Positions 30,560 to 60,653 of a stretch of DNA of 61,212 nucleotides are shown piece by piece. Position 1 is the first letter of the stretch. Each line of letters begins with the position of its first letter. The position numbers were made by a program, and so were the translations under genes. A model generated the notes under the pieces. The model was not told where the DNA came from. It was given only the letters and a program-made list of their open reading frames with translations, and searched no databases. Source of the stretch: Bdellovibrionales bacterium (GTDB taxonomy: Bacteria > Bdellovibrionota_C > UBA2361 > RFPC01); NCBI GenBank assembly GCA_020434565.1, contig JAGRAO010000001.1, forward strand, positions 1-61,212, in the 5' to 3' direction.

Positions 30560-30576
30560 TTAGAGCGGCACAAGTA

Positions 30577-30626
30577 AGACTCTCGTGTAACCCCGAACTA
30601 GGGGCTTGTGAGTCTAGGGTTTTTTG
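30577..30626 (+). terminator. Compound hairpin plus T-run downstream of dnaA
   Basis: AGACTC pairs with GAGTCT, enclosing CCCC-gaacta-GGGG. The hairpin is followed by AGGGTTTTTT. Confidence 0.6.
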
Positions 30627-31366
30627 ACGCTCGACTTTTCTCCTAAGCACGGTTTTCAGAACAGAGAAGCGAAATATTCGTTCGCTCGCGGGCTCAGTGC
30701 TTACCTCAACAGGGTATTCGTTCACGGAGCACCGCCGAGATTTTTGTGGACAACCCCGCTAACGTTTATTTATTACACTGTTTTTTCCGGTAAAACCTGT
30801 GGGTTTCTCTGTAGTACTTGGGGGTATCGTTCACCAAAAGGATCGTTTGCTTCATCCGAAAAAATGAACGGGAGAAATCACTCCCCTTTCCAACGGGTTT
30901 TCATCAGCTTTTCGCGGCGAGATCACAAACACTTTTCAGGATGTGGCCCACTTTCCAACAGATCTCACCCGTCCCTACTACTACAACTACTAAATCTCTC
31001 TTTAATAATAGTTACAAACCAAACCTCTTCGCTTTGATCTTATCTGTCTTTCACTCTCCACATTGAGCGAAGGAAAGAATGCTCTCTGTTTCGTGCAAAT
31101 GCCGCCTTATTTATCCCAGGAGGAAGTCCCCTTTGACTCTCCGAGGATTTCTAAGATTCAGTTCAATTACCGGCTCTTTTCGAATTGTTTTTAAATAATT
31201 TAATGTATAGTCACAGGTGCTGATGTACTCAGTGGGTTCGTAAACGTTCGTTTCATAAACGTTGTCTCTTTGCTTTTCTCGATTTCGAGGGCGAAGATGA
31301 GTTGCTCGCTCTCATACCTGTCATTGGGCAGTGATGGAGACCGCAACTTCAGCGAAAGGATTGCTG
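30627..31366. other. Candidate oriC in the long dnaA-dnaN spacer
   Basis: About 800 bp lie between the dnaA stop and the probable dnaN start. TGTGGACAA (30745-30753) has one mismatch to the DnaA box. CTCTCCACA (31054-31062) has two mismatches. An AT-rich run GAATTGTTTTTAAATAATTTAATGTATAG lies at 31182-31210. Confidence 0.5.
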
Positions 31367-32494: not shown

Positions 32495-32752
32495 TATCCC
32501 GACCAATAGGCTTCCTCAATCTAGATTTTTAAGGAGAATTTTTAGGAATTACGAGCGCCGACCGAAGGAAGGCAAGACGACAAGGCACCTCGACTCGAGG
32601 AAAATCGGCTAACCTTCGGGTTTTTGCTGTGTAGAAATCTCTTCGTCTAGGTTCCTGTTGAAGCACTAGCCCGTTTTGCCAAATTCTTTTTTCTTAATGA
32701 AATGGTGGATCCTTTTTGAAGGACTTGTGCCAAAGCATCATGAAACTCTTGT

Positions 32753-33871
32753 ATGCATCTTTCTTCGCTTTCCCCCTATTGTTTTCGAAATCTCAGCCCC
32801 GGTTCGATAACGTTTAGTCCGGGGCTGAACTTTATTTTTGGAAAAAATGGCCAGGGCAAAAGCAACATTCTCGAAGCGGTCTCTCTTTTAAGTACAACCA
32901 CTTCATTTCGGACGAAGCGCTCCTCAGACCTTACCACGTGGGGGAAGGACGAATGTTCAGTAGCTGGGATAGTGTCTCAAGACGGGACTATCTTTGAGCT
33001 TCTTGTGACCCTTCAGCACGGGAGAAGATCGGCTTTTGTAAACGGTGACCGACTTAAACGTCTCTCGGATTTCGTTGGCAAGTTACCTGCTGTGACCTTT
33101 TCGCCAAATGATCTCGAACTCATTAAAGGGGGTCCCGGGGAGAGGCGCGCCTTTCTCGATCGATACTGCAGTTTTCTCTATCCTCAATATTTTGAATCTC
33201 TTTCACGTCTTCACCAGATAACGAGGAGCAAAGCAGCCCTTCTCAAAGAGAATCCAAGCTCGTTGAGCGCCTTGCAAAGCTGGAACGAGCTTTTCGCGGA
33301 GGAGGCTTTCACGGTTGCCTCATTTCGACGCCTCTTCATATCCGACCTTGAGCCCGGGGCTCAGATCGTCCACAGACGATATGCGAGCAATGATGGTTCT
33401 TTAGAGCTGCGACTTGTTTCGCAACTTTTACATGAGTCGGGAGCGGTGAAATCGAGGCAAGAAATTCTGAATGATTTATCGGCGGTACACCAGCGAGAGC
33501 GGGCAGCTGCAAAGGTTCTCTACGGACCGCAACGCGATGATATCGAGATATTTCTTAATGAGAAAAGCTCTCGAAGCTTTGCTTCTCAGGGGCAAAGCAG
33601 AAGCCTTGTACTCTCTCTCCTCATGAGCGTTCTTGAGCTCCTTCGGGCTAAAAACGGCGACTACCCGATTCTGCTCCTCGACGATGTAGAGTCTGAACTC
33701 GACCATGGTCGTCGAAATGACTTTTTTACCGCCCTCCTCGATCACGGATGCCAGACAATCGTTACCGGTACGGAAAGAGCTGAATTTTCAATATCGAATC
33801 AACTTTTGGACCAAGCAAGCTACTACGTTGTAGAGGCAGGAGAAGTTTGCCAGATTGACTCCAAAAACTAG
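32753..33871 (+). CDS. recF: DNA replication/repair protein RecF
   Basis: FRNL and the Walker A motif GKNGQGKSNILEA are present. The signature region is GQSRSLVLSL and the Walker B motif is ILLLDDVESELD. Confidence 0.9.
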   Translation: MHLSSLSPYCFRNLSPGSITFSPGLNFIFGKNGQGKSNILEAVSLLSTTTSFRTKRSSDLTTWGKDECSVAGIVSQDGTIFELLVTLQHGRRSAFVNGDRLKRLSDFVGKLPAVTFSPNDLELIKGGPGERRAFLDRYCSFLYPQYFESLSRLHQITRSKAALLKENPSSLSALQSWNELFAEEAFTVASFRRLFISDLEPGAQIVHRRYASNDGSLELRLVSQLLHESGAVKSRQEILNDLSAVHQRERAAAKVLYGPQRDDIEIFLNEKSSRSFASQGQSRSLVLSLLMSVLELLRAKNGDYPILLLDDVESELDHGRRNDFFTALLDHGCQTIVTGTERAEFSISNQLLDQASYYVVEAGEVCQIDSKN

Positions 33872-33938
33872 GCGATATGCAGGGGATAAGAGCGCTTTTT
33901 GTTCCCAGCGAACAAACAAGTAAAACTCTACCAAGAAC

Positions 33939-36733
<2,795 letters not shown>

Positions 36734-40279: not shown

Positions 40280-40290
40280 AGGAGCAGATT

Positions 40291-41637
40291 GTGAGATCCT
40301 TCAATTCACTTCGGGGAGTATCGAGACGAAAATTTCTTAAGCTGTTAAGTCTTGGGCTTGCGTCCTACGGAATGGTTGGCCCGCGTGTCGCGAAGGCAGA
40401 TTTGAGTATCCCGGGAGGCGGGGAAACCAACGCTCCGAGGGTACTTATCATACTTGAAATGCTTGGGGGGTGTGACAATCTTGGACTCGCGCTTCCAACC
40501 GATTCGGAACGACTCTCACTGCTTCAGACAATTCGGGGAAATGCAATTTATGATTCGGAGGTAGTCAATCTTCACGGATATGGCATACCGATGGCACTTC
40601 ATCCTTCATTTGCTCCATTGTTGCCGCACTTTGATCACCTCAGAATTACGCAGAACATTGGGCATGCTACGCACACGAGCTCAAACGGCTCTCACGAAAA
40701 CATGCAGCTACGAATGGCGCTCGGAGGGGTTGGGTCGGACACGAACAATATTGGAACTGTTGGGAGAATGTACGATGCAGTGTCTGATTTGGAAGTTATC
40801 GGATTTCGTCCCTCTGAAGGGGTAAATTTCAATTGTCAGAGCGAGAAGTGCCAGATTCACAAGCCGCCAGTCTTTGATGTTTATGAGACTTTTACTCTCT
40901 CAGGTGAGTACTTCTCGAGTTCCCAAGGTGGTTCTAACAACGCAGCTCATGTAGCGAAGGTGCTTCGAGACCTATCGGACTTGCCCCCTCCTGAGGGAGC
41001 CAGCGCAAGAGAGCTTGAGTATCGTGAGAGCTTTCGAGGAGTATTTCCTGTCATCGATGAAATTCAAACCACGTTGACACAACACCAAACAGCTTTGCAT
41101 GACTCCTATCCGAGTACGAGCCTCGCAAACAAATTTCGAAATATTGCAAGTACAGTGTTACGGTGGAAACGAGAAGAGAGAACCATGCCAGCGGTTTTTG
41201 TGCTCGGAACTGGAGGATTCGATGTTCATCAGAGTTGGCAAACGAGTATGAGCAATGCCTTGTCTCCGATTGCCGATGCTCTTCGAGTTTTTTGTGACGA
41301 TATGATTGCCGAAGATCTCTTTGAAAATATCGTTGTTACAACCATGACAGAGTTTGGGAGACAACTCGCCTGGAATGGCTATGGAACAGATCACGGACGA
41401 GCCTTCCACGCCTTAACCATAGGCGGACGTATTAATGGTGGCACAAACGCAGTTTTCGGAAATACGATCTCAGCCGCGGATATCTCTTCGAACGTTTTTT
41501 GGGAGATAGAACGAGATTCGCGATCGCTCCTATCTGAGATTGTAGAAAATCATCTTCTCCTCGATCCACTTACAACAGCTTATCCAGGAGTGCTCGGTAC
41601 CCAATTCACGAGAGAGAGTTACGGCCTCTTCATCTAG
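40291..41637 (+). CDS. Tat-exported DUF1501-family (sulfatase/alkaline-phosphatase-like fold) protein
   Basis: The twin-arginine signal is SRRKFLKLLSLGLASYG...AKA. GGCDNLG and MTEFGR...NG.GTDHG are typical of DUF1501. It starts 11 nt after the DUF1800 gene. Confidence 0.8.
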   Translation: MRSFNSLRGVSRRKFLKLLSLGLASYGMVGPRVAKADLSIPGGGETNAPRVLIILEMLGGCDNLGLALPTDSERLSLLQTIRGNAIYDSEVVNLHGYGIPMALHPSFAPLLPHFDHLRITQNIGHATHTSSNGSHENMQLRMALGGVGSDTNNIGTVGRMYDAVSDLEVIGFRPSEGVNFNCQSEKCQIHKPPVFDVYETFTLSGEYFSSSQGGSNNAAHVAKVLRDLSDLPPPEGASARELEYRESFRGVFPVIDEIQTTLTQHQTALHDSYPSTSLANKFRNIASTVLRWKREERTMPAVFVLGTGGFDVHQSWQTSMSNALSPIADALRVFCDDMIAEDLFENIVVTTMTEFGRQLAWNGYGTDHGRAFHALTIGGRINGGTNAVFGNTISAADISSNVFWEIERDSRSLLSEIVENHLLLDPLTTAYPGVLGTQFTRESYGLFI

Positions 41638-48935: not shown

Positions 48936-51227
48936 ATGACCGAAGAGAGCACGTTAGACGAAGAGTCCAGTTCAAGCCAAGGAGCGAGAGCTGAGACCGA
49001 TTTCTTTCCAGATTATAGCCTTTCATACAAAAGGAGATTCGGGGCATTCCTCTTTCTCTTTGGTCTCCTCATGTATCACCGCTTGCCAGTAGTGGAGCAT
49101 CTTTCCACCGCCTATTATGGCGGTGCAAGAGGCGATGCTGGGCTCTACGTTTGGTTGACGAGAAGTATCGGAGATGCGCTGTCGTGGCGACGTTGGTTTG
49201 ATACATCTGCGTTTTTCCCTTACCGAGAAACTCTCGCGTGGAGTGATAATTTCATTCTTCCGTCGCTCTGTACTCAAGCGCTGGAGGCGCTCGGATTTTC
49301 TCATATCGCGGCGTATAATCTTGTCTTGTTAGGCGCGGGGCTCCTTGCTGGGTATTGGACTTTTCGACTTGCGTACCTGATTTCGGGCCAATTTTTGGGT
49401 TCACTCTTGAGTGGGTCAACTTTTCTTTCGCTCGGGTATCTCTCGGGTGTCTCCGGCCATCCGCAGTTGCAGTTCGTGTTTTTCTTTCCGCTTGTTTTCT
49501 ACTTTTTCTTTCGCTTTGTTTCGTCACCGAGCTACTCCCGCAGTTTCATTATAGGCCTCGGGCTTTCGGGAGCGTTTTTAACCACGGTTTACTTCGCGCT
49601 CTTTTCGGGCTTTGCCGTGGTATTATTGTTTTGTGCGTTCTCTGTGCTTCGGCCTTGGAGGATGAATCGCTTCGCAGCCTCGAGGTTCATCGTTGGGGTC
49701 TCAGTTGGTCTCGTTCCAGCAGCTCCCTTTATTGTTCCCTACTTCGACGTTGCGAATATTTTTTCAGCTCGAGATATATTCGAAGCATTTGCGTTTCGAG
49801 CGAGTCCACTTTCGTATTTTGCCGGCTCGGAACATAATGTTCTCTACTCGTTTACAAATTCCCTTTCCCATGCAGAAGCACACCTCTTTCCGGGATTTGT
49901 CTTTTATCTTTTGAGTTTTATTCCAATTGCCTTGTTGTGGTGGGTGCGCTCGCTTCGTCCTTATTATTTAGGAGTGATTCTATCGGGGGTCTTCGGCTCT
50001 GCGCTTGTCGCCCTTGATCCAAAAGTCGCAAACTCATTTATTCAATCGGTCATCCATGGATTCGTGATTTTTCTTCTTTGGCTTTCCTGGTTTCTCTTTG
50101 CTGGGGCCCTCTATCGCTTAGGGCGCCGAGAAGAGGAGACAGGAGTACTGTTCGTAACAAACCGTTCGCTCACACTTCTGATTGGATTTCTTGCCTATTC
50201 TTTCTATCTCCTCTCTCTCGGGCCGGTCTTTGACCCGCGCGCGACATCACTCGGATCGTTTTCGCCATTTGGCATTTTGTATCATATCGTTCCCGGCTTT
50301 GATTCTATGCGAGCGATTAGTAGGTGCGGAGTTTTGGTCCTGCTTTTCTTGAGTGTCCAGCTCAGCTTCTCCACTGTCTCTTTAAAGAGAGTACGTAGAG
50401 CCGAAGTAGTCGTCGGTTTGTTGTTTCTCTTTATCTATGGAGAGAACCTGGTGCGCTATATCGATTTAGAGACCCCCCAAAAGCTTCCTACTGTTCTCTC
50501 GGAGGTCCAAAAGGTAGCGCAGAGAGAAGATGTCATTATGTTTCTCCCCTGGACACAAGAGATCAATCCGAGTGGAGGGGTAAAAAGTTGGGGAGATTTT
50601 GCAAGAAAGAACTCAATATATATGAATTGGTCGGCCCAGATCGGTTTGAAGACTACAAATGGGTACAGTGGTTTGAGGTCAAAGCTCATGAAAGAATTGC
50701 CGCGCAAAATGAGCGGCTTTCCTGATCAGCGTTCACTTACGACGCTTGCATTTCTTGGTAATGTTCGATTTGTCGTGTTGTGTCCATACCTCTTGGAGGG
50801 ATTTGACGAGAACTATTTTCGCGAAGAACTCTCTCTTTATGAGAATGATTTAAAACTTCTCGGGCAAGATGAGGACGGAAACTTCGCCTTTGAGTTTATT
50901 GGAGAGAGTAAGGTTCGAGAGGCACTTCAGGTGCTTCTCCCAGCTCACTCACGGTCCTTCGTGCATTTGGAAGTCAAATCGCTCTACCAGCCGAATTCTC
51001 CCGAGATTCCCTTGACTCTGAGGGAATCTCTTCACTACCAGGGCGAAGCGCTTGGCACCCTTACGATCAAAAGCGATGGGCAGTGGCAAGGTTTTCTCTT
51101 GCCTCTGCCCGAACCAAAGGTTCCCGTCATTCCGTTTCAACTTCAGTTTGAAACGACGGAGGGCAGTGCTGTCTATGTGAAGGATGTTCGTGCCGTTCCG
51201 GGAGAGTCAAGTGAGGAAGAGATGTGA
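48936..51227 (+). CDS. Large polytopic membrane protein with C-terminal soluble domain (GT-C-like architecture)
   Basis: About 12-14 hydrophobic segments over 480 aa, then a soluble domain of roughly 270 aa. The architecture resembles YfhO/ArnT-type glycosyltransferases. This is a call from architecture, not a motif-level match. Confidence 0.45.
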   Translation: MTEESTLDEESSSSQGARAETDFFPDYSLSYKRRFGAFLFLFGLLMYHRLPVVEHLSTAYYGGARGDAGLYVWLTRSIGDALSWRRWFDTSAFFPYRETLAWSDNFILPSLCTQALEALGFSHIAAYNLVLLGAGLLAGYWTFRLAYLISGQFLGSLLSGSTFLSLGYLSGVSGHPQLQFVFFFPLVFYFFFRFVSSPSYSRSFIIGLGLSGAFLTTVYFALFSGFAVVLLFCAFSVLRPWRMNRFAASRFIVGVSVGLVPAAPFIVPYFDVANIFSARDIFEAFAFRASPLSYFAGSEHNVLYSFTNSLSHAEAHLFPGFVFYLLSFIPIALLWWVRSLRPYYLGVILSGVFGSALVALDPKVANSFIQSVIHGFVIFLLWLSWFLFAGALYRLGRREEETGVLFVTNRSLTLLIGFLAYSFYLLSLGPVFDPRATSLGSFSPFGILYHIVPGFDSMRAISRCGVLVLLFLSVQLSFSTVSLKRVRRAEVVVGLLFLFIYGENLVRYIDLETPQKLPTVLSEVQKVAQREDVIMFLPWTQEINPSGGVKSWGDFARKNSIYMNWSAQIGLKTTNGYSGLRSKLMKELPRKMSGFPDQRSLTTLAFLGNVRFVVLCPYLLEGFDENYFREELSLYENDLKLLGQDEDGNFAFEFIGESKVREALQVLLPAHSRSFVHLEVKSLYQPNSPEIPLTLRESLHYQGEALGTLTIKSDGQWQGFLLPLPEPKVPVIPFQLQFETTEGSAVYVKDVRAVPGESSEEEM

Positions 51228-52230: not shown

Positions 52231-53748
52231 CTATCCTATCTGACTTCCATCGCTACACGCAGCACACTGACCTTCGTCATCAACGCCGCACGGGCACTCG
52301 CAATAGCAAGTGTCATTCGCGCCCTCTTGAACTGCGCCACCATTGGCGCACGAAAAATCCTGGCATCCACATTCGCAAGAATCAGGATCTCGGGTTTTAT
52401 TTCCTGGGCAAGCAGTCGATACACACACACAATCTCCAACCTCTGGAGCGCCACCGGACCACTCTCTGTTTCCTTGACAAGTGCACTGACATTGAGCGTT
52501 GTGATACGGATTATTCGGATTACCATTTACTGAGTAGGGACGTTGGCCATATCCGAGAATTGAATTTGCAGGGCACCCTCCCCAGTTTGACAGGCACCAA
52601 CACGAACAGCGATCGGGAGCAAGCATCATTCGCTCAGCAGGGATGCCGTACAACGTTTCACAATCAGACATCGTAAGTTCTCTTCCTTCAGCCGAGCCAT
52701 CGTCTACGCGACATTCACAACGATAGGTGGAATCATCTGTCCCGGTTATGACTCTGCCAGGAAGAAAGGTGATTGGCGGTGCCGGCGGATCTCCATCATC
52801 TGGATCCCAATATGGCATGGGTGGAGCGGGAGAGTCTCCTCCAGGCGGTGGATCACATTCGCACTCTGCCTCAACACCACCATTAAAGCCGGTATTTTGA
52901 TAGCAACCACAACGACACTTGTTTGGACCAACCGAGTATCGCACACTTCCCGGCCCGTATTTGTCGACACAAAATTCTGTCGTTGGACATTTGCAATTAA
53001 AATCGTCTGCAAAGCTGTTGAAATAATTTTTCCCTTCAGGTTCTTCTCCGGTTGCTGAGCGGTCAAACTGGCAGGCGTGGCAGGTTCCAATCCCTTCATC
53101 GTCAATGAACCACAGTGAATTCGGCTCATCAGAACAATCACACGGCCCCTGACCATAGTTCGGCATTCCAAATGGAATGCCAGCGCAATCCACCTTGAGT
53201 GTGCCGGAGTACGGGGTAATCTGTTCTCGATACGCTACTGCCGTTCGAACAACCTGCTGGTACGATGATGAACCATCAAATGCGGAGTAGATGAGCGACA
53301 CTGGATTTACGACATAATACGTCAGCCGCAACACTATCGGCTCAGAGAGAAACGCTGCTCGTTGGCTTTGTCCGTCTTCTGGTTCGGGAAGGATAACCGA
53401 AGCGGCATCAATCGGGGCAAATGCGAATCCCCCCGGTCCGCCTATCGAGATGAGGCCTTGAGATACTGGAAGATCAAGCATCGCTGCTCTAACTTTTTCA
53501 ACTCCGAGACACCATCCGGTCGCATCGTGGTCATTCGCAGTGCAATCCTCTCGGTTCTCTTCGAACTCGGCGGCTGTTGTGGCCAAGGTAATCGCGCGCC
53601 CTAGTGCGGTGTCAACAATTCCGTTAGTGAGCATCCACAATCCAAAGTAGCAGACGGCGAGAACGAGAGAGAAGAAAATAGGGAGGCCAATAGCGTACTC
53701 TATGAACTGAGCACCGGCTTCGTGGGATATTTCTCTTCGCCTCTTCAT
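52231..53748 (-). CDS. TadE/Flp-type pseudopilin-like N-terminus fused to a large Cys-rich (CxC/CxCxC) domain
   Basis: The N-terminus is MKRRREISHEAG-AQFIEYAIGLPIFFSLVLAV, a G/AxxIEY prepilin-type motif plus a hydrophobic helix. I count about 39 Cys by hand. Clusters include PCDC, NCKC, KCRCGC, ECEC, RCEC, RCSCWC, QCQCTC, DCVC, SCECGC and TCYCECPC. Confidence 0.7.
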   Translation of the reverse strand: MKRRREISHEAGAQFIEYAIGLPIFFSLVLAVCYFGLWMLTNGIVDTALGRAITLATTAAEFEENREDCTANDHDATGWCLGVEKVRAAMLDLPVSQGLISIGGPGGFAFAPIDAASVILPEPEDGQSQRAAFLSEPIVLRLTYYVVNPVSLIYSAFDGSSSYQQVVRTAVAYREQITPYSGTLKVDCAGIPFGMPNYGQGPCDCSDEPNSLWFIDDEGIGTCHACQFDRSATGEEPEGKNYFNSFADDFNCKCPTTEFCVDKYGPGSVRYSVGPNKCRCGCYQNTGFNGGVEAECECDPPPGGDSPAPPMPYWDPDDGDPPAPPITFLPGRVITGTDDSTYRCECRVDDGSAEGRELTMSDCETLYGIPAERMMLAPDRCSCWCLSNWGGCPANSILGYGQRPYSVNGNPNNPYHNAQCQCTCQGNREWSGGAPEVGDCVCVSTACPGNKTRDPDSCECGCQDFSCANGGAVQEGANDTCYCECPCGVDDEGQCAACSDGSQIG

Positions 53749-53800: not shown

Positions 53801-56092
53801 TTAGAGATCGGGGTCTACGATCGCAAAACTCTGGCTATTGATAAAGACATCTTTAAACGCTTGGCTCACCTGTTCTCTCGGAGAGCGACAGCCCCAGTCG
53901 TAAAAATTGCGCTGTCCGCTGAGTGCTTTACAATCGATAACTGGAACGTCATCGGGGCAGCCGGGATGTACCGTTCGAACCGGTTGATAGATCCCACCGG
54001 TAATAACAGATGCCCTATAGAGAGCCTCAGCAGCTGGGGTAAACCCAAAATTTTCATACCGGTTATTAAACAGACCATTTCCGAATTCGTCGTTATAGAC
54101 CTCTCGGCCCTCAACAAAGAGCTGGCCGGAAGCCCGCGCCTCGTCGTCCGATATGCAAGCGACAGCTCCCCCCTCCTCCTTTTTGTCCTTCGGTATGAAG
54201 AGGGTATGCGCTCCGCCCTGTTGGCCGGCGTGAATATGATGCAGCGCGATATTTGACTGAAAGAGCGAAATGAATGCGATGTCAAGATAGTCATCGGCAG
54301 CTTTGCGCCATGTTTCGTAGTTTAGCTCGCAAAATTTTCCCTTTCCTGAAATGCCAGACAGCTGTTCGGCTGATTCACCATTGACGCATGAATGGATTCC
54401 GTCTGTAGCGTGAACAATCAGCTTTACTGCAGAGAAATTTGCTTCAGCGTCGGAAAGCTGTCGGGCGGCTTCGGTCAACGCCAGGGTAGAATTTGTAAAT
54501 CCCGACGCAGTCGGAAAAAGTCGGAGCTTGATCCAGCGCGGGAGCTGAACGACGTCGTCCCCGAGATCGTTGAAATAGGTGTTGGGATCTGGAGAATTGA
54601 GTCCGGGGAGAGATCCAACGCCATTTTCTCCAACAATCTCTTCGAGGACAGAGAGCGGGTAGTCGAGATTCTGGGTAAGATTAATGACTCGTCCCCATGT
54701 GAGCTCTTCGTCGTAGGCAATGAGGGCTGCGCGATCGTTTGGAACACCACGCTTCTTTAGCAAGGCGAGAGTTTCGTGGATTCCCCGAATAATCGACATG
54801 AACGGTTCCGGCCCAACAACGGGATAATTGTCACGCTCGTTGTCGAGGTAATAATAAAGGGGTGAAGGATCAGCCGAGTCGGTAATATTTTCCGCTTCTC
54901 CCGGTACTGGATGATACTGTCTGTCAGAGTAGAGCTCCCTTCCCTCTATTGAGATGGGATACGTAAAAACAGGATCGGTCCGGTATTCGTCCTTGGCGTG
55001 TGAGCGAAAATCGGGGCTTCCATCGTCTGTTTCAGGGAGGTTTTCCCAGTTCGTCGCAACCAAATCAGGGGTAACTTTCCAGGCTCCAGCGTCTTGCACA
55101 ACCTGATAAGCGAAAAATGCCGCAGGAGGCTGGTCAGAATTGGGATCAGGAGTGGCGGTCGGACTCGGCTCTTCCTCTACCTCAGCCTCATCAAGCGGGT
55201 CTACGGGAGAAAGGATATCGGACTTTACAGGTGTTTCGAATTCATAAGTTCCGAGCGCTTTCCCAAAATCAAAACCAGCAAATTTAGACTCCTCTTCTTC
55301 GCCAGAAGCCGCGCTCTCTTCTTCGCTTCCTTCATCCGCACCCTCGTTCTTTGCTCCGAGGTCGACCTCTTTAGGAGCTTCTGGATTTTTTGTATCAATT
55401 TCCGGATCATTTTTCGCATTACCACCTTCATCATCGCCAAGGGGCGGGAGGTGAGTTATCTCAGCCACGGAAGCTGAGAGATCAGCCATAAATACGGCAA
55501 AAATAGGAGCAACTGCAGCAGCCGAGGTAATCTCTATGTAATCTCGTTTTGAGCTGGTGAAAGAGTTTGCCCATGAAAGGCGGTCACTCGCGATTTTCCC
55601 ACGAATCGTTACAGCGTTTGCCAGCTCATCCGAGGTGCGACCGCATAGAGTAGGGGGAACCTGGCGATTACACGACTCGGGGAGAGAACCGTCAAGCGGT
55701 AACGCGGTATAGTGACGTTGAGCCGTTACCTGGAGGATACCAACTTCGTTTGAACTCTCAGTTTGGAACTCTACATTTCCTAGCACAGCTGAGCTTTGGT
55801 AGGAGAGGGCCTCGAGGGCGTCGAGTGCAGCTTCTTGTTTTTTAGCGTGGCACACCGAAGTCGAGTCAGCCGGCTCACACTGTTCCGCCGCATATCCCTT
55901 TAAATAGGCAAGGGCGAGGTGATTCATTGCCGCCTGCATCTGCTCGACGGTAGAGCCGGTTGTTGAGATGTAATAGATCCCAAAAGCAAAGAGCACCGTA
56001 AAAGAAAACACGGCTGTAGCGAGAAGGATCATTCCTCCACCAGCTTCCGATTGGAATCGCCTTACATTTTGCATATAGCCATCAGTTCGCAA
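53801..56092 (-). CDS. TadG-like membrane-anchored von Willebrand factor A (vWA) domain protein
   Basis: The N-terminal anchor is GGGMILLATAVFSFTVLFAFGIYYI. The MIDAS motif is FMADLSAS (DxSxS). Later vWA elements are GFTNST and LIVHATDG. A large acidic insert follows the MIDAS motif. Confidence 0.7.
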   Translation of the reverse strand: MRTDGYMQNVRRFQSEAGGGMILLATAVFSFTVLFAFGIYYISTTGSTVEQMQAAMNHLALAYLKGYAAEQCEPADSTSVCHAKKQEAALDALEALSYQSSAVLGNVEFQTESSNEVGILQVTAQRHYTALPLDGSLPESCNRQVPPTLCGRTSDELANAVTIRGKIASDRLSWANSFTSSKRDYIEITSAAAVAPIFAVFMADLSASVAEITHLPPLGDDEGGNAKNDPEIDTKNPEAPKEVDLGAKNEGADEGSEEESAASGEEEESKFAGFDFGKALGTYEFETPVKSDILSPVDPLDEAEVEEEPSPTATPDPNSDQPPAAFFAYQVVQDAGAWKVTPDLVATNWENLPETDDGSPDFRSHAKDEYRTDPVFTYPISIEGRELYSDRQYHPVPGEAENITDSADPSPLYYYLDNERDNYPVVGPEPFMSIIRGIHETLALLKKRGVPNDRAALIAYDEELTWGRVINLTQNLDYPLSVLEEIVGENGVGSLPGLNSPDPNTYFNDLGDDVVQLPRWIKLRLFPTASGFTNSTLALTEAARQLSDAEANFSAVKLIVHATDGIHSCVNGESAEQLSGISGKGKFCELNYETWRKAADDYLDIAFISLFQSNIALHHIHAGQQGGAHTLFIPKDKKEEGGAVACISDDEARASGQLFVEGREVYNDEFGNGLFNNRYENFGFTPAAEALYRASVITGGIYQPVRTVHPGCPDDVPVIDCKALSGQRNFYDWGCRSPREQVSQAFKDVFINSQSFAIVDPDL

Positions 56093-56171: not shown

Positions 56172-56867
56172 CTATTCACCGACAAAGAGAAACGGTCCAG
56201 TGCTCGAAGCAGAAATTTTAGCAGTGTTTCCCCAAATCGCACGGAAAAAAATCGGCGCACTCATCTCAAGTCGGACCTCTACCATGTCAGTTCGAGTGTT
56301 ATGAGGCGGCTCTGACGGAGTTGGAGTTGGCTCTGGGCTTGTACCTCCCCCACCTGCTTCGCAAGGACTTCCTTTGTCACCAGCGTCAAATATGTTGTCA
56401 GGAGTGAGAGAGTTGTCATCTTTTATTTCTGCCACTTCTTTGCACGGCTCAGGCGAAAGAACCGATCGAAGCTGTGGATCACCTCCGACAAGCACATCCT
56501 CCTGCCACCGTCGGGTCGTTACAGAAACCCCGGCACGGAGTTTGTTGCCATACTGGTTGATCATCCGGTTAATCTTATTCTGCACTTCGTAGTGAACCGT
56601 TCCTTGAGGGGCTTCACCTGCATACGTGGCAAGCTCAAGGTCGGGAGTATCTGACATGAGCCGTGATCCTTGGTACGCCAACTGTGAGAGTGTGTAGTAT
56701 TGCTGCAAGAGCATCCCGACATCAACAAGCAGCGCAAAGAGCAACAGAAATACGGGCAGTACTAAACTGAACTCCACCAACGCCACGCCGCCCTCATCCC
56801 GAATTTGAAAAGGGAAGGGGGAGGTGCGTCTTTGTCCTCTCCGGATAGCCATTGTTGAAAAGCCCAC
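56172..56867 (-). CDS. TadE-like pseudopilin-type protein
   Basis: EGGVALVEFSLVLPVFLLLFALLVDVG is the TadE-like N-terminal motif. The start is GTG 56867 or ATG 56852. Confidence 0.7.
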   Translation of the reverse strand: MGFSTMAIRRGQRRTSPFPFQIRDEGGVALVEFSLVLPVFLLLFALLVDVGMLLQQYYTLSQLAYQGSRLMSDTPDLELATYAGEAPQGTVHYEVQNKINRMINQYGNKLRAGVSVTTRRWQEDVLVGGDPQLRSVLSPEPCKEVAEIKDDNSLTPDNIFDAGDKGSPCEAGGGGTSPEPTPTPSEPPHNTRTDMVEVRLEMSAPIFFRAIWGNTAKISASSTGPFLFVGE

Positions 56868-57659: not shown

Positions 57660-58061
57660 TCAAGAGTGAGCAGTGAGAAATTTTTCAAGTTTAGCGGTAG
57701 TTTCTCCGCTTATCAGATGTTCAGTCTTGCATGCATCAATCTCAGCCTGTTCTGGATCTACTTTCAACACATTTACCAGGAAATCAAAAAAGACTTTCTT
57801 TCGCTTTAACACGGCGCTTGCTAGCTGAGCACCCTCATCCGACAAATCGAGAAAGCGATTGTCGTCTTCTATGAGGAGCCCCTTGTTCTTCAAGCTCTTG
57901 AGGTTCGTAGAAGCACTCCCGGTTGTGATGTTGAGATATCGCGCTACATCAGTAACTCGTGCATATCCACGGGTTTCACGGAGGTCTTTTACCGCTAACA
58001 GATGATGAGCGGCGCTGTGAGTTATGTTGTTCTCTTCAAATTTTTTCCAAACGTCTTCCAT
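57660..58061 (-). CDS. DtxR/MntR-family transcriptional regulator (short, MntR-length form)
   Basis: The winged-HTH region is RGYARVTDVARYLNITTGSASTNLKSLKNKGLL, followed by a dimerisation helix region. The start is set at MEDVWKK (ATG 58061). Length is 133 aa. Confidence 0.75.
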   Translation of the reverse strand: MEDVWKKFEENNITHSAAHHLLAVKDLRETRGYARVTDVARYLNITTGSASTNLKSLKNKGLLIEDDNRFLDLSDEGAQLASAVLKRKKVFFDFLVNVLKVDPEQAEIDACKTEHLISGETTAKLEKFLTAHS

Positions 58062-58221
58062 ATCGACACTCCTGCTTATTCCCCTTTTTAAATGTGCCCG
58101 AGCGGAAACAAGTACCAAGCTTCAGTCGGTGAACGCCTCCTGTGAACGACAGGGCGCAATGAGGCACTTCCCCAAAAAAGCCACGTAAAAAAGAGGCTCG
58201 TTCAAAACAAAAAGCATTTGT

Positions 58222-58310
58222 TTTGGCTATTAAAACAGCTAGGAGAATAGCCAAACTCGTCAACAAAAGGAAGAGTTTGGCTAGTAAAGGAAAAGTATTT
58301 TATGCCAAAT
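58222..58310. promoter_or_regulatory. Array of four alternating TTTGGCTA / TAGCCAAA motifs (candidate operator)
   Basis: The four motifs are TTTGGCTATT (58222-58231), AATAGCCAAACTC (58246-58258), GAGTTTGGCTA (58273-58283) and a degenerate TATGCCAAA (58302-58310). The spacers between the first three arms are exactly 14 nt. Confidence 0.55.
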
Positions 58311-58419
58311 TTTATCTATTTGATATGCCGAGAAGCTGTTTTGGTCTCAAAAGCACCTCTTCTCTCTTGGCTTTACTCGCGAGAGGCAACCTTTCATCCT
58401 GCGACACACTAGTGAATAA

Positions 58420-59253
58420 TTGACGATCGTGAGCGCTAAAATCTTCATCTTTGCCAGAGCAATCGTCTTTTTGTGGATGGTTGTCACCGGGGTATCAATC
58501 GCAATGGCGATTGAACAACCCACGAAAGAGCTTGAGCCGGTAAATCTTGAACCTCATCTCGGTCAGCAAGTAACTCTTGTTTCTTCCTTTGTCACCTCTA
58601 CCGGTCAAGCCGTTACAGTCGCTGATCTCTTTCTTGCTGGTAAGCCACTTTTGGTCATTCCGGCATACTACACTTGCCCGAGGCTGTGCGGGCTGGTCCT
58701 CACGGGGGTTGCCGAGGCCCTTTCGAAAGTAGGGCTTGAGGTCGGTACCGACTATAAAGTTATCACTGTGAGCTTTAATCCCAAAGATACTCCCGAAAAG
58801 GCCAAGAGAACTGCGGAGAAATACCGCGCGATGTACTCAGGCAAGGGAGACCCAACGGCCGGCTGGGAATTCCTCGTCGGAACCCAGGAAAATATTGACT
58901 CTCTTATGGGAGAACTCGGGTTTCGCTATATCGAAGATAAGAAAGAGTATGCTCACACTGCTGCTTTCATGATATTGACTCCTGACGGTCGAATTTCACA
59001 GTATTTCCCTGGGGTTCAGTTCCCTGAGCGGGATGTGAGGCTAGCTCTGGTAGAAGCGAGCGAGGGAACGATCGGTTCGTTCATCGATCAAGCGCTCCTC
59101 TTTTGCTTCCGTTTCGATCCGACCAAAGGTCGATACACTATGGTTGCCTTTAATGTCGTCCGGGCAGGGGGTGGAGTGACTCTCGTGTTGCTTGGAGGGT
59201 TAATGTTAATTCTCTGGCGGAGAGAGGCACGGAAGAAGAGAGGTGTTGTCTGA
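58420..59253 (+). CDS. SCO1/SenC-family copper chaperone (thioredoxin fold)
   Basis: CPRLC (CxxxC) sits in the context IPAYYTCPRLCGLVL, with a downstream His in YAHTAAF. There are N- and C-terminal TM segments. The start is uncertain (TTG 58420 or GTG 58429). Confidence 0.8.
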   Translation: MTIVSAKIFIFARAIVFLWMVVTGVSIAMAIEQPTKELEPVNLEPHLGQQVTLVSSFVTSTGQAVTVADLFLAGKPLLVIPAYYTCPRLCGLVLTGVAEALSKVGLEVGTDYKVITVSFNPKDTPEKAKRTAEKYRAMYSGKGDPTAGWEFLVGTQENIDSLMGELGFRYIEDKKEYAHTAAFMILTPDGRISQYFPGVQFPERDVRLALVEASEGTIGSFIDQALLFCFRFDPTKGRYTMVAFNVVRAGGGVTLVLLGGLMLILWRREARKKRGVV

Positions 59254-59330
59254 AGTCGTAGCAGATTCTAGGGAATCTGCTTGAAACCGGAAGTTGCTTG
59301 AAACAGGGTGCCCTAAAGTAAGGAGAAAGG

Positions 59331-60653
59331 ATGTTTCGTTTTTTGCCAGAGCAAGCCTCTGCGGTCGCACCAGAGGTTGATTGGTTGCACAACTGGATCA
59401 CTGATTTGTCGGTTTTTTTTACCGTTGCCATCTGTGGAGCGATGTTATGGTTTGCTCTCCGTTATCGGAAGCGCGGTGAACAGCACCATGAAACGCCGCG
59501 GATTGAGGGAAATAATCTCGCCGAAATTATCTGGACGGTAGTTCCAACGATAATCAGCATCTTTGTGGCGTACTACGGAGTCGTTATCTACTTCGATATG
59601 TATCGGATTCCACCGGGACAAGAGGCCGAAGTTGTCACGATCAATGCGACTGGGAAGAAATGGGACTGGAGCTTCCAATATGCAAATGGCAAAACAACAG
59701 CCGGAGAGTTTTATGTCCCTGTTAACCGGCCCGTTAAGGTCGTATTGACAGCGGTCGACGTTCTCCACAGCTTCTTTGTGCCAGCCATGCGAGTAAAACG
59801 AGATGCTGTTCCTGGCCAGTATTCTTCGGTTGTTTTTACCCCGGTAAAAACGGGTGTCTACAACACGTTCTGCACTGAGTATTGCGGTACAAATCACTCG
59901 GCGATGCTTGCGAAACTCCATGTCGTCTCTCAGGCAGAATATGATCGATGGCTTAACGACAGAACGGCTGATCTTGCAAAATTAACCATGACTCCTGAGC
60001 GACTTGGTAGAACACTTTACGGTGAGGGTGAGCTTGGTTGTAAACAGTGCCACAGTTTAAACGGTGCGGCAGGAATAGGGCCGACCTTCCTCAAGCTCTG
60101 GCAGAGTGAGCGTCACTTTGCAGATGGCACGACTGCCGTCGCTGATGAGAACTACATTCAGGAATCCATCCGATATCCCGGTAAGAAAGTTGTTCAGGGA
60201 TTTGCAAATGGAATTATGCCTGGCAATTTCGTCGATCTTCCACAAGACCAGATCTCAGCTCTGATCGCGTTTATTCAAGCGCAGGATGGTACTGCTCCAG
60301 TGGAAGAAGAGACCGAAGAAGAAGAAGATCAAGCGGTAGACCTTGAGAGTATGACTCCTGCCGAGCGAGGAGAGTATCTCTACGCTAACGCCAAACCAGC
60401 GGCGTGTGTGTCGTGTCACAGTATTGACGGAAGCAAAGTAGTTGGTCCGAGCTTCAAGGGCCTTTACGGTCGCCACGGTGAATTGGAAGATGGTTCGAGC
60501 TACGAAGCTGATGAGTCATACATTAAACACTCAATCCTTGAACCGCAGTCTCAGATCGTGAAGGGAATGCCGCCCGTGATGCCTTCGTATAAAGATGCTT
60601 TGTCAGAGGCGGATATAGAGGGAATCATCGCGTATATGAAAACGCTTCAGTAG
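59331..60653 (+). CDS. coxB: Cytochrome c oxidase subunit II fused to two c-type cytochrome domains
   Basis: Two N-terminal TM segments. The CuA site is HSFFVP...CTEYCGTNHSAM. Two CxxCH motifs (CKQCH, CVSCH) are separated by an acidic linker EEETEEEEDQ. Confidence 0.9.
   Translation: MFRFLPEQASAVAPEVDWLHNWITDLSVFFTVAICGAMLWFALRYRKRGEQHHETPRIEGNNLAEIIWTVVPTIISIFVAYYGVVIYFDMYRIPPGQEAEVVTINATGKKWDWSFQYANGKTTAGEFYVPVNRPVKVVLTAVDVLHSFFVPAMRVKRDAVPGQYSSVVFTPVKTGVYNTFCTEYCGTNHSAMLAKLHVVSQAEYDRWLNDRTADLAKLTMTPERLGRTLYGEGELGCKQCHSLNGAAGIGPTFLKLWQSERHFADGTTAVADENYIQESIRYPGKKVVQGFANGIMPGNFVDLPQDQISALIAFIQAQDGTAPVEEETEEEEDQAVDLESMTPAERGEYLYANAKPAACVSCHSIDGSKVVGPSFKGLYGRHGELEDGSSYEADESYIKHSILEPQSQIVKGMPPVMPSYKDALSEADIEGIIAYMKTLQ

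What the first reader, a model, noticed from the sequence alone, without database searches (positions are those of the whole stretch)
52234..53166. Roughly 310-aa extracellular-type domain with about 39 cysteines in repeated CxC / CxCxC / CxCxCxC clusters
I read at least ten clusters directly from the translation: PCDC, TCHAC, NCKC, KCRCGC, ECEC, RCEC, RCSCWC, QCQCTC, DCVC, SCECGC, TCYCECPC and QCAAC. They are interspersed with Pro/Gly/Asp-rich linkers (DPPPGGDSPAPPMPYWDPDDGDPPAPP).

I do not recognise this as EGF, a metallothionein, a keratin-associated protein or any bacterial Cys-rich repeat family I know. Alternating CxC spacing attached to a pilin-like anchor could mean one of two things. 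It could be a very densely disulfide-knotted adhesin. It could also be a surface-displayed metal- or metal-sulfide-binding module, since CxC is a classical thiolate-cluster motif.
Basis: seen in the sequence. Interest (0 to 1): 0.65.

Follow-up and report, generated by a model that had tools for sequence, protein, structure and literature searches.

The report
Cysteine-rich Tad pilus tip pilin
This gene belongs to a rare, unnamed family of Tad-pilus minor pilins whose tail is a conserved, almost certainly disulfide-packed domain of CxC/CxCxC repeats resembling the "silk-homology" repeats of animal VEGF-C, and it probably forms part of an adhesive pilus tip rather than a metal-binding module.

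Summary
ORF 52231..53748 (-) encodes a 505-aa protein with 39 Cys, 35 of them in residues 195-505. There are 16 CxC steps against 3.8±1.7 in shuffles, and no CC.

The N-terminus is a TadE-type prepilin signal (G12|AQFIE17Y). An exhaustive search of 1.84 billion representatives found only 25 homologues. All share the architecture, and 36 of the 38 ectodomain Cys columns are present in at least 16 of 19 aligned relatives at about 28% identity.

The ectodomain Cys count is even in 24 of 26 members (p=5e-6), and Cys are lost or gained in even sets. This supports intramolecular disulfides over metal-thiolate clusters.

In 7 of 8 genomic contexts the gene sits in a three-gene cassette with a small TadE-like pilin and a 660-760-aa TadG-like protein, away from core tad genes. 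In the eighth, only the large gene is seen. This matches the stand-alone KilL/M/N "Tip" clusters of Myxococcus.

The repeat C-x10-C-x-C-x-C equals the BR3P/CXCXC motif (Pfam PF03128). Two relatives pass Pfam's threshold; the window protein does not. No PDB fold match was found.

Verdict: a new variant of a Tad tip minor pilin. Function is inferred, not shown.

The parts
52231..53748 (-). Complete gene for the 505-aa Cys-rich TadE-like minor pilin (stop codon 52231..52233)
   Evidence: ORF list and translation. There are 25 full-length homologues in the exhaustive search.
53713..53748 (-). Leader peptide, residues 1-12 (MKRRREISHEAG), ending at the predicted prepilin-peptidase site G12|A13
   Evidence: The G-x4-E-Y motif is read directly from the sequence. 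E17 (+5 Glu) is invariant in A1 and A2. Cleavage is inferred, not shown.
53605..53712 (-). Hydrophobic alpha1-N helix with the TadE motif, residues 13-48
   Evidence: Pfam PF07811 TadE matches residues 12-48 at 22.9 bits, equal to the gathering score. TadE is hit by 24 of 26 family members, best E 1.8e-12. AF2 predicts a helix over 8-58 with pLDDT about 90.
53194..53604 (-). Pilin-like alpha/beta body, residues 49-185, with the C69-C80 pair
   Evidence: AF2 with the family alignment gives helices plus 5 strands at pLDDT 80-91. C69 and C80 are lost together in P0011 and P0016.
52855..53193 (-). Cys-rich subdomain 1, residues 186-298 (VDC188..G..P..PC203DC205 ... C252xCP..C260..YG..C278xCxC..C296xC)
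   Evidence: All 13 Cys columns are present in at least 18 of 19 homologues. D187, C188 and G190 are invariant. pLDDT is 65-91.
52774..52854 (-). Pro/Asp/Gly-rich linker, residues 299-325
   Evidence: Read from the translation. Residues 304-314 have pLDDT below 50. This region varies strongly in length among the homologues.
52234..52773 (-). Cys-rich subdomain 2, residues 326-505, holding C344xC, C363, C381xCxC, C392, C420xCxC, C440xC, C447, C458xCxCx4C467, C481xCxCxC and C495xxC
   Evidence: The Cys columns are conserved except C487 and C498, which occur together in a minority of members. The CxC motifs coincide with predicted beta strands 343-348, 383-385, 422-424, 440-442 and 481-484.
52363..52410 (-). 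Strict BR3P/CXCXC-type unit C447-PGNKTRDPDS-C458-E-C460-G-C462
   Evidence: Regex C-x10-C-x-C-x(1,3)-C; shuffles expect 0.03 occurrences. The motif definition comes from PMC5816233 and PMC10328876.
53801..56092 (-). Upstream partner gene: a 757/763-aa TadG-like large minor pilin. It has an N-terminal hydrophobic helix, invariant D204xS206xS208 ... T533 ... D564-G565, and an acidic insert. The likely start is the ATG at 56074.
   Evidence: Homologues lie next to the Cys-rich gene in all 8 contexts examined. The alignment of four of them, A5, gives 28-30% identity over the full length. There is no Pfam or PDB hit, so the vWA/TadG assignment is an inference from motifs and context.
56172..56867 (-). 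First gene of the cassette: a small TadE-like pilin (231 aa; G27|VALVE32F)
   Evidence: Pfam TadE at 46.2 bits, E 5e-12. It is 32% identical to the small TadE gene of locus L081, E 1e-16.

Best explanation
The gene encodes a minor pilin (pseudopilin) of a Tad/Flp-type type IV filament.

How it would be built and placed:
- A class III signal (leader MKRRREISHEAG, cleavage after G12, Glu at +5) would be processed by a TadV/CpaA-type prepilin peptidase.
- The hydrophobic alpha1 helix and a small alpha/beta pilin body dock the protein into the filament.
- With the two co-oriented upstream genes, a small TadE-like pilin and a roughly 760-aa TadG-like protein, it most likely forms a heterotrimeric complex that primes and caps the pilus. 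The Myxococcus KilL/KilM/KilN "Tip" complexes are modelled to do this.

The 320-aa C-terminal extension:
- It is an acidic, secreted module in which essentially all 36 Cys are paired in intramolecular disulfides.
- CxC and CxCxC motifs lie on beta strands, so alternate Cys point to one face and staple neighbouring hairpins together.
- This would give a rigid, protease-resistant domain built from diverged copies of a C-x(10-17)-CxCxC unit of the BR3P/CXCXC type.
- Displayed at or beside the pilus tip, it would serve as a contact or adhesion surface, or as a rigid scaffold for the TadG-like head. The target would be prey or substrate.

Shown here: the gene, the family, Cys conservation, parity, the cassette and the TadE motif.
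Inferred: cleavage, tip location, disulfide status, adhesive role and host lifestyle.
For: Anchor:
- Pfam TadE matches residues 12-48.
- TadE is hit in 24 of 26 members.
- E17 is invariant, and the G-x4-E motif is read across the alignment.

Family:
- There are 25 homologues with the same full-length architecture among 1.84 billion representatives.
- 21 Cys are invariant and 9 nearly invariant.
- 36 of 38 ectodomain Cys columns are present in at least 16 of 19 sequences.

Disulfides:
- The ectodomain Cys count is even in 24 of 26 members, binomial p=5e-6.
- C69 and C80 are co-lost twice. C487 and C498 co-occur. Four Cys are lost together in P0025 and five in P0009.
- The CxC motifs fall in predicted strands.

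Cassette:
- In 7 of 8 contexts (the window, L081, L084, L098, L100, L101, L103) a small TadE gene, the Cys-rich gene and a 660-760-aa gene lie together. In L099 only the large gene is seen next to the Cys-rich gene.
- The large partners are homologous over their full length, with DxSxS..T..DG invariant.
- The small partners are homologous.

Precedent and lineage:
- Stand-alone kilLMN tip clusters with many predicted disulfides are described in PMC12075869.
- Tad and TadG are needed for prey invasion in Bdellovibrio (preprint 10.64898/2026.07.08.737194).
- One member comes from a MAG labelled uncultured Bdellovibrionales.
- The window's GyrB is equally distant (about 50-55%) from Binatia, Bdellovibrionota and Myxococcota MAGs.

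Model: AF2 with the family alignment gives mean pLDDT 77, with the Cys domain mostly at 70-90.
Against: - No core tad genes (tadA, rcpA, tadB/C, tadV, flp) lie in the 61-kb window or next to any of the 8 cassettes (and the context calls). The link to a Tad machine therefore rests on the TadE motif and on analogy.
- The window protein's TadE score sits exactly at Pfam's threshold.
- The partner protein has no Pfam or PDB match. Its TadG/vWA nature is motif-level inference only.
- I could not run a complex prediction or inspect model coordinates. The trimer and the disulfide map are untested.
- Two family members have odd Cys counts.
- The domain is acidic (net -32), unlike the basic, heparin-binding BR3P domains, so no ligand can be transferred.
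- The lineage of the window is unresolved.
Confidence: 0.6

Rival explanations
1. The domain is a surface-displayed metal-binding or metal-sulfide-binding module. The CxC/CxCxC thiolates stay reduced and coordinate Zn, Cu, Cd or Fe-S clusters, as in metallothioneins.
For: CxC and CxxC are classical thiolate motifs. The domain is strongly acidic, which could attract cations. A DtxR/MntR-type regulator, SCO1 and a cytochrome oxidase subunit II gene lie 4-7 kb away.
Against: - The ectodomain Cys count is even in 24 of 26 members across counts of 26-100, and Cys are lost in even sets. A pairing constraint predicts this; cluster ligation does not.
- The location is extracytoplasmic, after a prepilin signal, where disulfides are the norm (established knowledge).
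- Cys is 11% of the domain, with 26 aromatic residues and long non-Cys loops, unlike metallothionein.
- No metallothionein or metal-domain Pfam hit was found in any member.
- His content is low and not conserved.
- The metal-related genes are in separate, differently oriented transcription units and are absent from the other seven contexts.
Confidence: 0.06
2. The protein is a pseudopilin of a short periplasmic, type II secretion-like filament or another non-Tad type IV filament. The Cys-rich domain would then act in the periplasm, or as a secreted cargo adaptor, not at the tip of an extracellular pilus.
For: There are no tad core genes nearby in any context. In MAG 6_bin.32 a protein that reads like GspK lies divergently upstream of the cassette (my reading, untested). 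Tip location is inferred only by analogy.
Against: The N-terminal motif matches the Pfam TadE and Tad families rather than the N_methyl/GspG-type signals. The G-x4-E-[YF] spacing is the Flp/TadE type. The three-gene small/extended/large layout is that of the tadE-tadF-tadG and kilLMN sets. A 320-aa cystine-rich acidic domain is more typical of exposed proteins.
Confidence: 0.15
3. The Cys-rich tail is a true homologue of the eukaryotic BR3P/CXCXC "silk-homology" repeats, either by shared ancestry or by horizontal transfer. It would work like them, as a matrix- or surface-binding multivalent repeat. This concerns origin and is compatible with the best explanation.
For: - The strict motif C-x10-C-x-C-x(1,3)-C occurs in 15 of 26 members. 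P0019 has 12 copies against 0.14 expected.
- Pfam PF03128 is passed by P0020 (19.1 bits) and P0019 (16.7 bits), with a gathering score of 15.
- The repeat consensus C-[PG]-[GP]-[NG]-x-x-x-[DN]-x-x-[TS]-C-x-C-x-C mirrors VEGF-C units.
- With Cys held fixed, Smith-Waterman z is 4.2, 4.1 and 5.0 for P0019, P0003 and P0026.
Against: - The window protein itself does not hit PF03128. With Cys held fixed it scores only z=2.0, with 20 of 500 shuffles reaching the observed value.
- The Pfam model has 13 positions, so its threshold is easily reached by convergent Cys spacing.
- The exhaustive phmmer search returned no eukaryotic-type proteins.
- The same spacing also resembles resistin, CxCx3Cx10CxCxC.
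- The charge is opposite to that of the heparin-binding VEGF domains.
- The VEGF-C sequence was recalled from memory, not retrieved.
Confidence: 0.3
4. The ORF is not a real gene. On this reading it is a chance open frame, or an alternative frame of something else that happens to be rich in TGT/TGC.
For: Several shorter ORFs overlap it in other frames. A spurious Cys-rich alternative-frame ORF does exist elsewhere in the window.
Against: It has full-length homologues at 25-36% identity with conserved Cys, Glu, Asp and Gly columns. It has conserved neighbours, a Pfam TadE motif, and a confident AF2 model once the alignment is supplied.
Confidence: 0.01

Closest known systems
TadE/TadF pseudopilins of Tad (Flp, type IVc) pili, Pfam PF07811
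   Same: They share the N-terminal class III signal with the G-x4-E-[YF] motif, a hydrophobic alpha1 helix and a small alpha/beta body. Both are encoded beside a second TadE-like gene and a large TadG-like gene.
   Different: Canonical TadE/TadF proteins are about 150-200 aa and have no C-terminal extension. This protein adds a 320-aa module with 36 Cys. The cassette is not inside a tad locus.
KilL/KilM/KilN minor-pilin "Tip" complexes of the Myxococcus xanthus Kil (Tad-like) pilus (Herrou et al. 2025, PMC12075869)
   Same: Both are three-gene sets of short, extended and large (TadG-like) minor pilins. Both are found as stand-alone clusters away from the machinery genes. Both have many predicted intramolecular disulfides. 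In both, variable distal domains are proposed to customise the pilus tip. Both occur in predatory delta-like lineages.
   Different: No sequence homology to the Kil Tips was tested here, and the paper found tip1-4 restricted to Myxococcota. In the Kil Tips the variable distal domain belongs to KilN. Here the conspicuous extra domain sits on the TadE/F-like (KilL-position) protein and is a CxC-repeat module that the paper does not describe.
BR3P / CXCXC repeat (Pfam PF03128): the VEGF-C/D silk-homology domain, Chironomus Balbiani ring 3 silk protein and the Acanthamoeba mannose-binding adhesin MBP1
   Same: They share the unit C-x10-C-x-C-x-C, with similar non-Cys preferences (G/P-P/G-N ... D/N ... 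T/S before CxCxC). They also share tandem arrangement and extracellular location. Two relatives pass the Pfam threshold. The eukaryotic examples are matrix-binding, fibre-forming or adhesin proteins. PF03128 has no solved structure (PMC8078820), in line with the absence of PDB fold hits here.
   Different: The eukaryotic repeats are not known from pilins. The window protein has only one strict unit and does not reach the Pfam score. Its first subdomain (VDCxG..PCDC..CxxC..CxCP) has no counterpart. The domain is acidic, whereas the VEGF silk-homology and heparin-binding domains are basic. Homology is unproven.
Resistin / RELM C-terminal Cys signature
   Same: The window's spacing C440-x-C-x4-C-x10-C-x-C-x-C nearly equals resistin's C-x-C-x3-C-x10-C-x-C-x-C. 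The repeat profile aligns to resistin and RELM-beta in register.
EGF-like / laminin-EGF repeats
   Same: These are small disulfide-stapled beta-hairpin modules with a CxC step followed by G-[FYW]. The weak top Foldseek hits are Notch, Jagged and DLK1 EGF repeats.

Membership tests
TadE-like minor pilin (Pfam PF07811) | The N-terminal TadE motif scores at or above Pfam's gathering threshold | tested here: met
   The window protein scores 22.9 bits against a cut-off of 22.9, so it only just passes. 24 of 26 family members match, best E 1.8e-12.
TadE-like minor pilin (Pfam PF07811) | Prepilin-peptidase site with Gly at -1 and Glu at +5, followed by a hydrophobic helix | tested here: met
   G12|AQFIE17Y is read from the sequence. 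E17 is invariant in A1 and A2. AF2 predicts a helix over residues 8-58.
TadE-like minor pilin (Pfam PF07811) | Processing by TadV/CpaA and incorporation into a Tad pilus | not testable with these tools
   This needs experiment. No prepilin peptidase gene lies in the window.
TadE-like minor pilin (Pfam PF07811) | Genomic association with a tad/cpa machinery locus | tested here: not met
   No tadA, rcpA, tadB/C, tadV or flp gene lies in the 61-kb window or in the flanks of the other 7 contexts. Dispersed tip clusters are known in Myxococcus and Bdellovibrio, so this does not exclude membership.
KilLMN-type Tad "Tip" minor-pilin complex | Three adjacent genes for a short pilin, an extended pilin and a large TadG-like pilin | tested here: met
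   Window: 231 aa, 757/763 aa and 505 aa, all on the minus strand. The same trio is present in L081, L084 (partly), L098, L100, L101 and L103. In L099 the small TadE gene is not seen.
KilLMN-type Tad "Tip" minor-pilin complex | Predicted or observed heterotrimer with a bundled alpha1-N base | not tested
KilLMN-type Tad "Tip" minor-pilin complex | Sequence or structural homology to the KilL/KilN proteins | not tested
   No Kil sequences were on hand. The paper reports tip1-4 as restricted to Myxococcota.
CXCXC / BR3P repeat (Pfam PF03128) | Score at or above the Pfam gathering threshold (15 bits) | tested here: not met
   The window protein has no hit at E up to 1. Relatives P0020 (19.1 bits) and P0019 (16.7 bits) pass, and P0010 (13.7 bits) does not.
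CXCXC / BR3P repeat (Pfam PF03128) | Motif C-X10-C-X-C-X(1,3)-C, as defined in PMC10328876 | tested here: met
   It occurs once in the window protein (C447..C462), with 0.03 expected. It is present in 15 of 26 members and 12 times in P0019.
CXCXC / BR3P repeat (Pfam PF03128) | Similarity beyond the Cys spacing to VEGF-C repeats | tested here: inconclusive
   With Cys fixed, Smith-Waterman z is 2.0 for the window protein (20 of 500 shuffles). It is 4.1-5.0 for P0019, P0003 and P0026. The hhalign probability is 80%.
Metallothionein-like thiolate-cluster protein | Small protein with very high Cys content (about 20-30%), few or no aromatic residues and no pairing constraint on Cys number | tested here: not met
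   The domain is 11% Cys over 320 aa, with 12 Tyr, 9 Phe and 5 Trp. The Cys count is even in 24 of 26 members. No Pfam hit was found.
EGF-like domain | Six-Cys EGF signature recognised by profile or by fold | tested here: not met
Resistin/RELM | C-terminal Cys signature with significant sequence or fold similarity | tested here: not met
   The profile hit has E of 1.5-2.3 only. No fold match was found.
TadG-like vWA tip protein (the neighbouring gene) | vWA fold with a MIDAS motif (DxSxS, T, D) | tested here: inconclusive
   D204xS206xS208, T533 and D564-G565 are invariant in 4 homologues. There is no Pfam VWA/Tad hit and no PDB hit, and no structure prediction was run.

The most novel reading that the evidence does not exclude
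The family may be the first prokaryotic home of true BR3P/CXCXC "silk-homology" repeats. This cystine-stapled repeat has so far been described only in eukaryotic secreted proteins: VEGF-C/D, chironomid silk and an amoebal adhesin. A review calls its phylogenetic origin unknown. Here it would be fused to a Tad minor pilin and displayed on the pilus tip of Bdellovibrionota-like, possibly predatory, bacteria. That would link an animal growth-factor propeptide repeat to a bacterial contact organelle. It would also offer a tractable bacterial system for solving the repeat's structure and finding its ligand.
Probability: 0.25. Interest if true: 0.7.

Novelty: new variant of a known kind. Interest (0 to 1): 0.5.

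Why it matters
Tad pili are widespread adhesion, biofilm and predation organelles. Only recently has it been proposed that interchangeable minor-pilin tip complexes give them target specificity.

This family adds a tip-associated module of a quite different kind: a conserved domain of about 300 aa with roughly 18 cystines, carried on the TadE/F-like subunit. It is confined to a handful of uncultured lineages, and one carrier is labelled Bdellovibrionales. If it sits at the tip, it is a candidate determinant of what these cells attach to or attack.

Its CxCxC repeats also resemble a eukaryotic repeat (BR3P/CXCXC) that has no solved structure and no known origin. A bacterial version could help resolve both questions.

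Tried and rejected
Searches that found nothing:
- Word-indexed protein searches with the protein, the family alignment A1 and the partner alignment A5 returned only the window's own proteins. They did not even return family members that are in the collection. Cys-rich words probably saturate the 8000-candidate list.
- PDB sequence searches with the protein, A1 and P0019 gave nothing at E up to 10.
- NCBIfam gave nothing.
- tblastn against plasmids gave nothing for either the Cys-rich or the TadG-like protein.

Structure:
- Single-sequence AF2 was unusable, with pLDDT 42.
- Model coordinates could not be read, so no disulfide map was made.

Related loci:
- The search for related loci with A1 and A3 failed for lack of a conserved 7-10-residue stretch.
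- A hand-made degenerate DNA pattern (D-C-x-G-x-P-x9-P-C-D-C) gave 13 hits in GTDB genomes, of which only one (L092, which encodes P0022) was real.
- A5 against the same genomes found only that MAG again.

Taxonomy: GyrB gave 49-55% identity to many phyla, so the lineage stays unresolved.

Readings rejected: metallothionein-like, EGF and resistin membership (see the membership tests), and a spurious ORF.

Promoter and terminator scans of the cassette showed nothing above shuffle expectation that helps. No Flp major-pilin-like ORF was found in the window.

Internal-repeat tests within the window protein were only modest: z of 2.3-2.7 with Cys fixed.
Full report
**1. The observation**

The finding's coordinates (52234..53166) are the minus-strand codons for residues 195-505 of a 505-aa ORF at 52231..53748.

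The count needs one correction. The whole protein has 39 Cys, and the 311-aa stretch has 35 (36 from C188). One Cys lies in the N-terminal helix, and two (C69, C80) lie in the pilin body.

The pattern is not a by-product of composition. There are 16 CxC steps against 3.8 +/- 1.7 (maximum 13) in 20,000 shuffles of the domain. There are no CC dipeptides against 3.8 expected.

**2. What the protein is**

Pfam finds only a TadE motif, at residues 12-48 and exactly at the gathering score. NCBIfam and PDB sequence searches find nothing. The leader reads MKRRREISHEAG|AQFIEY, which is the Flp/TadE-type G-x4-E-[YF] prepilin signal.

The word-indexed protein search returned only the protein itself. The exhaustive HMMER scan of 1.84 billion cluster representatives found 25 homologues (E from 5e-37 to 9e-5), all 349-806 aa, and most aligned end to end. 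All are unnamed singleton clusters, so the family is rare and undescribed.

Of the 26 members, 24 hit Pfam TadE, with a best E of 1.8e-12.

In a 19-sequence alignment at 22-32% identity to the window protein:
- E17 (+5 Glu), E175, D187 and G190 are invariant.
- 21 Cys are invariant and 9 more are nearly invariant.
- 36 of the 38 ectodomain Cys columns are present in at least 16 of 19 sequences.

The Cys are conserved.

**3. Anatomy**

AF2 without an alignment was useless, with pLDDT 42. With the 19-sequence alignment the mean pLDDT was 77. The model shows:
- a long alpha1 helix (residues 8-58);
- an alpha/beta pilin-like body (up to about residue 175);
- Cys-rich subdomain 1 (186-298);
- a low-confidence Pro-rich linker (304-314), which is also highly variable in length among homologues;
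- Cys-rich subdomain 2 (326-500).

The CxC motifs coincide with short predicted strands (280-282, 343-348, 383-385, 422-424, 440-442, 481-484). Alternate Cys would therefore face one side of a strand. This arrangement suits stapling neighbouring hairpins together.

Within the protein, segments 241-312, 331-445 and 416-505 resemble one another modestly (z of 2.3-2.7 with Cys fixed and 4.1-4.5 against full shuffles). This suggests diverged copies of a C-x(10-17)-CxCxC unit.

The domain is acidic in every member, with net charge from -1 to -60 and -32 in the window protein.

**4. Disulfides or metal thiolates?**

Three sequence-level tests favour cystines.

(a) The number of ectodomain Cys is even in 24 of 26 members, although it ranges from 26 to 100 (binomial p=5e-6).

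(b) Cys disappear or appear in even sets:
- C69 and C80 are lost together in two members.
- C487 and C498 co-occur in a minority.
- P0025 lacks C254, C278, C442 and C485.
- P0017 lacks C481 and C485.

(c) The composition is unlike metallothionein: 11% Cys, 26 aromatic residues and long loops. No metal-domain profile matches any member.

The protein also follows a prepilin signal and so is extracytoplasmic. The nearby MntR-like, SCO1 and CoxII genes are separate transcription units and do not recur in the other contexts. I put the metal-thiolate reading at about 6%.

**5. Genomic context**

In the window the gene is the last of three co-oriented genes:
- a 231-aa TadE-like pilin (Pfam 46 bits; G27|VALVEF);
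- a 757/763-aa protein with an N-terminal hydrophobic helix and no Pfam hit;
- the Cys-rich pilin.

I recovered seven further contexts for homologues: L081, L084, L098, L099, L100, L101 and L092/L103. In every one a 660-755-aa gene lies next to the Cys-rich gene. Wherever upstream sequence exists, a 144-175-aa TadE-like gene precedes it, except in L099, where transposase genes lie upstream.

The large proteins are homologous over their full length (28-30% identity). They share invariant D204-x-S-x-S, T533 and D564-G565, the pattern of a vWA MIDAS site, around an acidic insert. Neither Pfam nor the PDB recognises them, so "TadG-like vWA" remains an inference. The small pilins are homologous as well.

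No core tad gene and no Flp-like ORF occurs in the window or in any flank.

**6. Comparison with what is known**

This layout is what Herrou et al. (PMC12075869) describe for Myxococcus xanthus:
- TadE/TadF/TadG homologues KilM (short), KilL (extended) and KilN (large);
- partly encoded in stand-alone clusters;
- modelled as heterotrimeric spearhead "Tips" with numerous intramolecular disulfides;
- required for prey recognition and killing.

Structural analogues occur in Bdellovibrio and in pathogens. A 2026 preprint shows that the Tad machinery and a lone tadG are needed for prey invasion by Bdellovibrio.

One family member (P0010) lies in a MAG labelled uncultured Bdellovibrionales. Another (P0022) lies in an unclassified bacterial MAG.

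The window itself is an origin-proximal chromosomal region (dnaA-dnaN-recF-gyrB). Its GyrB is at most 55% identical to any GTDB species representative, and the best hits are spread over Binatia, Bdellovibrionota/Oligoflexia and Myxococcota MAGs. Its lineage is deep and unresolved.

**7. The repeat**

The unit C447-PGNKTRDPDS-C-E-C-G-C is an exact instance of C-X10-C-X-C-X(1,3)-C. This is the BR3P motif of the VEGF-C/D silk-homology domain and of chironomid Balbiani-ring silk protein. A review calls it unique within vertebrate proteins and of unknown phylogenetic origin (PMC5816233, PMC10328876).

Evidence for a link:
- The strict motif occurs in 15 of 26 members and 12 times in P0019, against 0.14 expected.
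- The consensus of 29 bacterial units is C-[PG]-[GP]-[GN]-Q-[TV]-x-[DN]-x-x-[TSD]-C-x-C-x-C.
- Pfam's 13-position CXCXC model (PF03128, gathering score 15) is passed by P0020 (19.1 bits) and P0019 (16.7 bits). It is missed by P0010 (13.7 bits) and not hit at all by the window protein.
The repeat profile gives an hhalign probability of 80%.
- With the Cys held in place and the other residues shuffled, z is 4.2, 4.1 and 5.0 for P0019, P0003 and P0026, but only 2.0 for the window protein.

The resemblance is therefore real at family level and marginal for this protein. With so short a unit, convergence cannot be excluded.

The same spacing also recalls resistin (CxCx3Cx10CxCxC), but only at E of 1.5-2.3.

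Other CXCXC-repeat proteins are extracellular binders or fibres, for example the Acanthamoeba mannose-binding adhesin MBP1 (PMC9692275). The bacterial domains are acidic, unlike the basic heparin-binding VEGF domains, so no ligand can be transferred.

**8. Most likely mechanism (confidence about 0.6)**

The protein is a Tad-type minor pilin. It would be cleaved at G12|A13 and anchored by its alpha1 helix. With its two operon partners it would assemble into a priming and capping complex.

Its C-terminal module of about 18 cystines would form a rigid, protease-resistant, acidic surface at or beside the pilus tip. There it would contribute to contact with a substrate or prey, or brace the TadG-like head.

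Shown: gene reality, family, conserved Cys, parity and co-loss, cassette conservation, and the TadE signal.
Inferred: processing, trimer formation, tip location, oxidation state and adhesive role.

The main rival is a periplasmic or non-Tad pseudopilin role (about 0.15). Homology with BR3P repeats (about 0.3) is compatible with the main reading.

**9. Novelty and score**

The kind of system is known: Tad minor-pilin tip sets. The particular module and family appear to be undescribed. I rate it a new variant of a known kind.

Interest is moderate at 0.5. It would be higher if the BR3P link or a role in predation were confirmed.

Noticed in passing
window 12083..12842 (+), overlapping the gene 11668..13179 (+): A second very Cys-rich open frame (8.3% Cys, 252 codons) appears in the six-frame scan. 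It lies in an alternative frame of a PMT_2-type membrane glycosyltransferase gene, in a strongly T-rich stretch (AT skew -0.24). It is most likely a frame artefact, not a gene.
   Followed up: partly
window 29096..36733 (+): The dnaA-dnaN-recF-gyrB order marks the chromosomal origin region. GyrB is at most 55% identical to any of the GTDB species representatives returned, with best hits scattered over Binatia, Bdellovibrionota/Oligoflexia, Myxococcota and 'Deltaproteobacteria' MAGs. The window therefore comes from a deep, poorly sampled lineage.
   Followed up: partly
window 57660..60653: A DtxR/MntR-type metalloregulator (-) is followed on the + strand by an SCO1/SenC copper chaperone and a cytochrome oxidase subunit II fused to a c-type cytochrome domain. 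These are metal-related neighbours of the pilin cassette, but they lie in separate units and are not conserved in the other contexts.
   Followed up: partly
window 53801..56092 (-): The TadG-like partner has a roughly 130-residue, highly acidic low-complexity insert (about residues 215-345) directly after the DxSxS motif. Its length varies greatly among homologues. The public gene call starts at the ATG (757 aa, 56074), not at the upstream TTG.
   Followed up: partly
L103 1039..2187 (-) (MAG JAUIBK01, isolate 6_bin.32): Divergently upstream of the cassette lies a 382-aa protein. Its N-terminus (..RGVALILVLFVVALASIIV..) and size read like a GspK/PilX-type large pseudopilin. This is my reading only; I ran no profile on it.
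   Followed up: no
L099 175..1922 (+): In the contig carrying homologue P0006, the small TadE gene is not seen upstream. DDE transposase genes and a DruA-domain gene sit there instead, which hints that the cassette can be rearranged or moved.
   Followed up: no
window 37391..41637 (+): A DUF1800 protein (962 aa, with a Big_9 Ig domain and a PSD1-like stretch) is followed by a DUF1501 protein. This conserved pair is of unknown function.
   Followed up: no
window 48936..51227 (+): A 763-aa polytopic membrane protein in a T-rich region has no Pfam family above threshold. It lies just upstream of an aldo/keto reductase whose end converges on the Cys-rich pilin gene.
   Followed up: no
method note (against 21, 89): The word-indexed homologue search missed every family member, although they are in its collection as singleton clusters. 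Cys-rich or low-complexity words probably fill the 8000-candidate list. For such proteins only the exhaustive scan is informative.
   Followed up: yes
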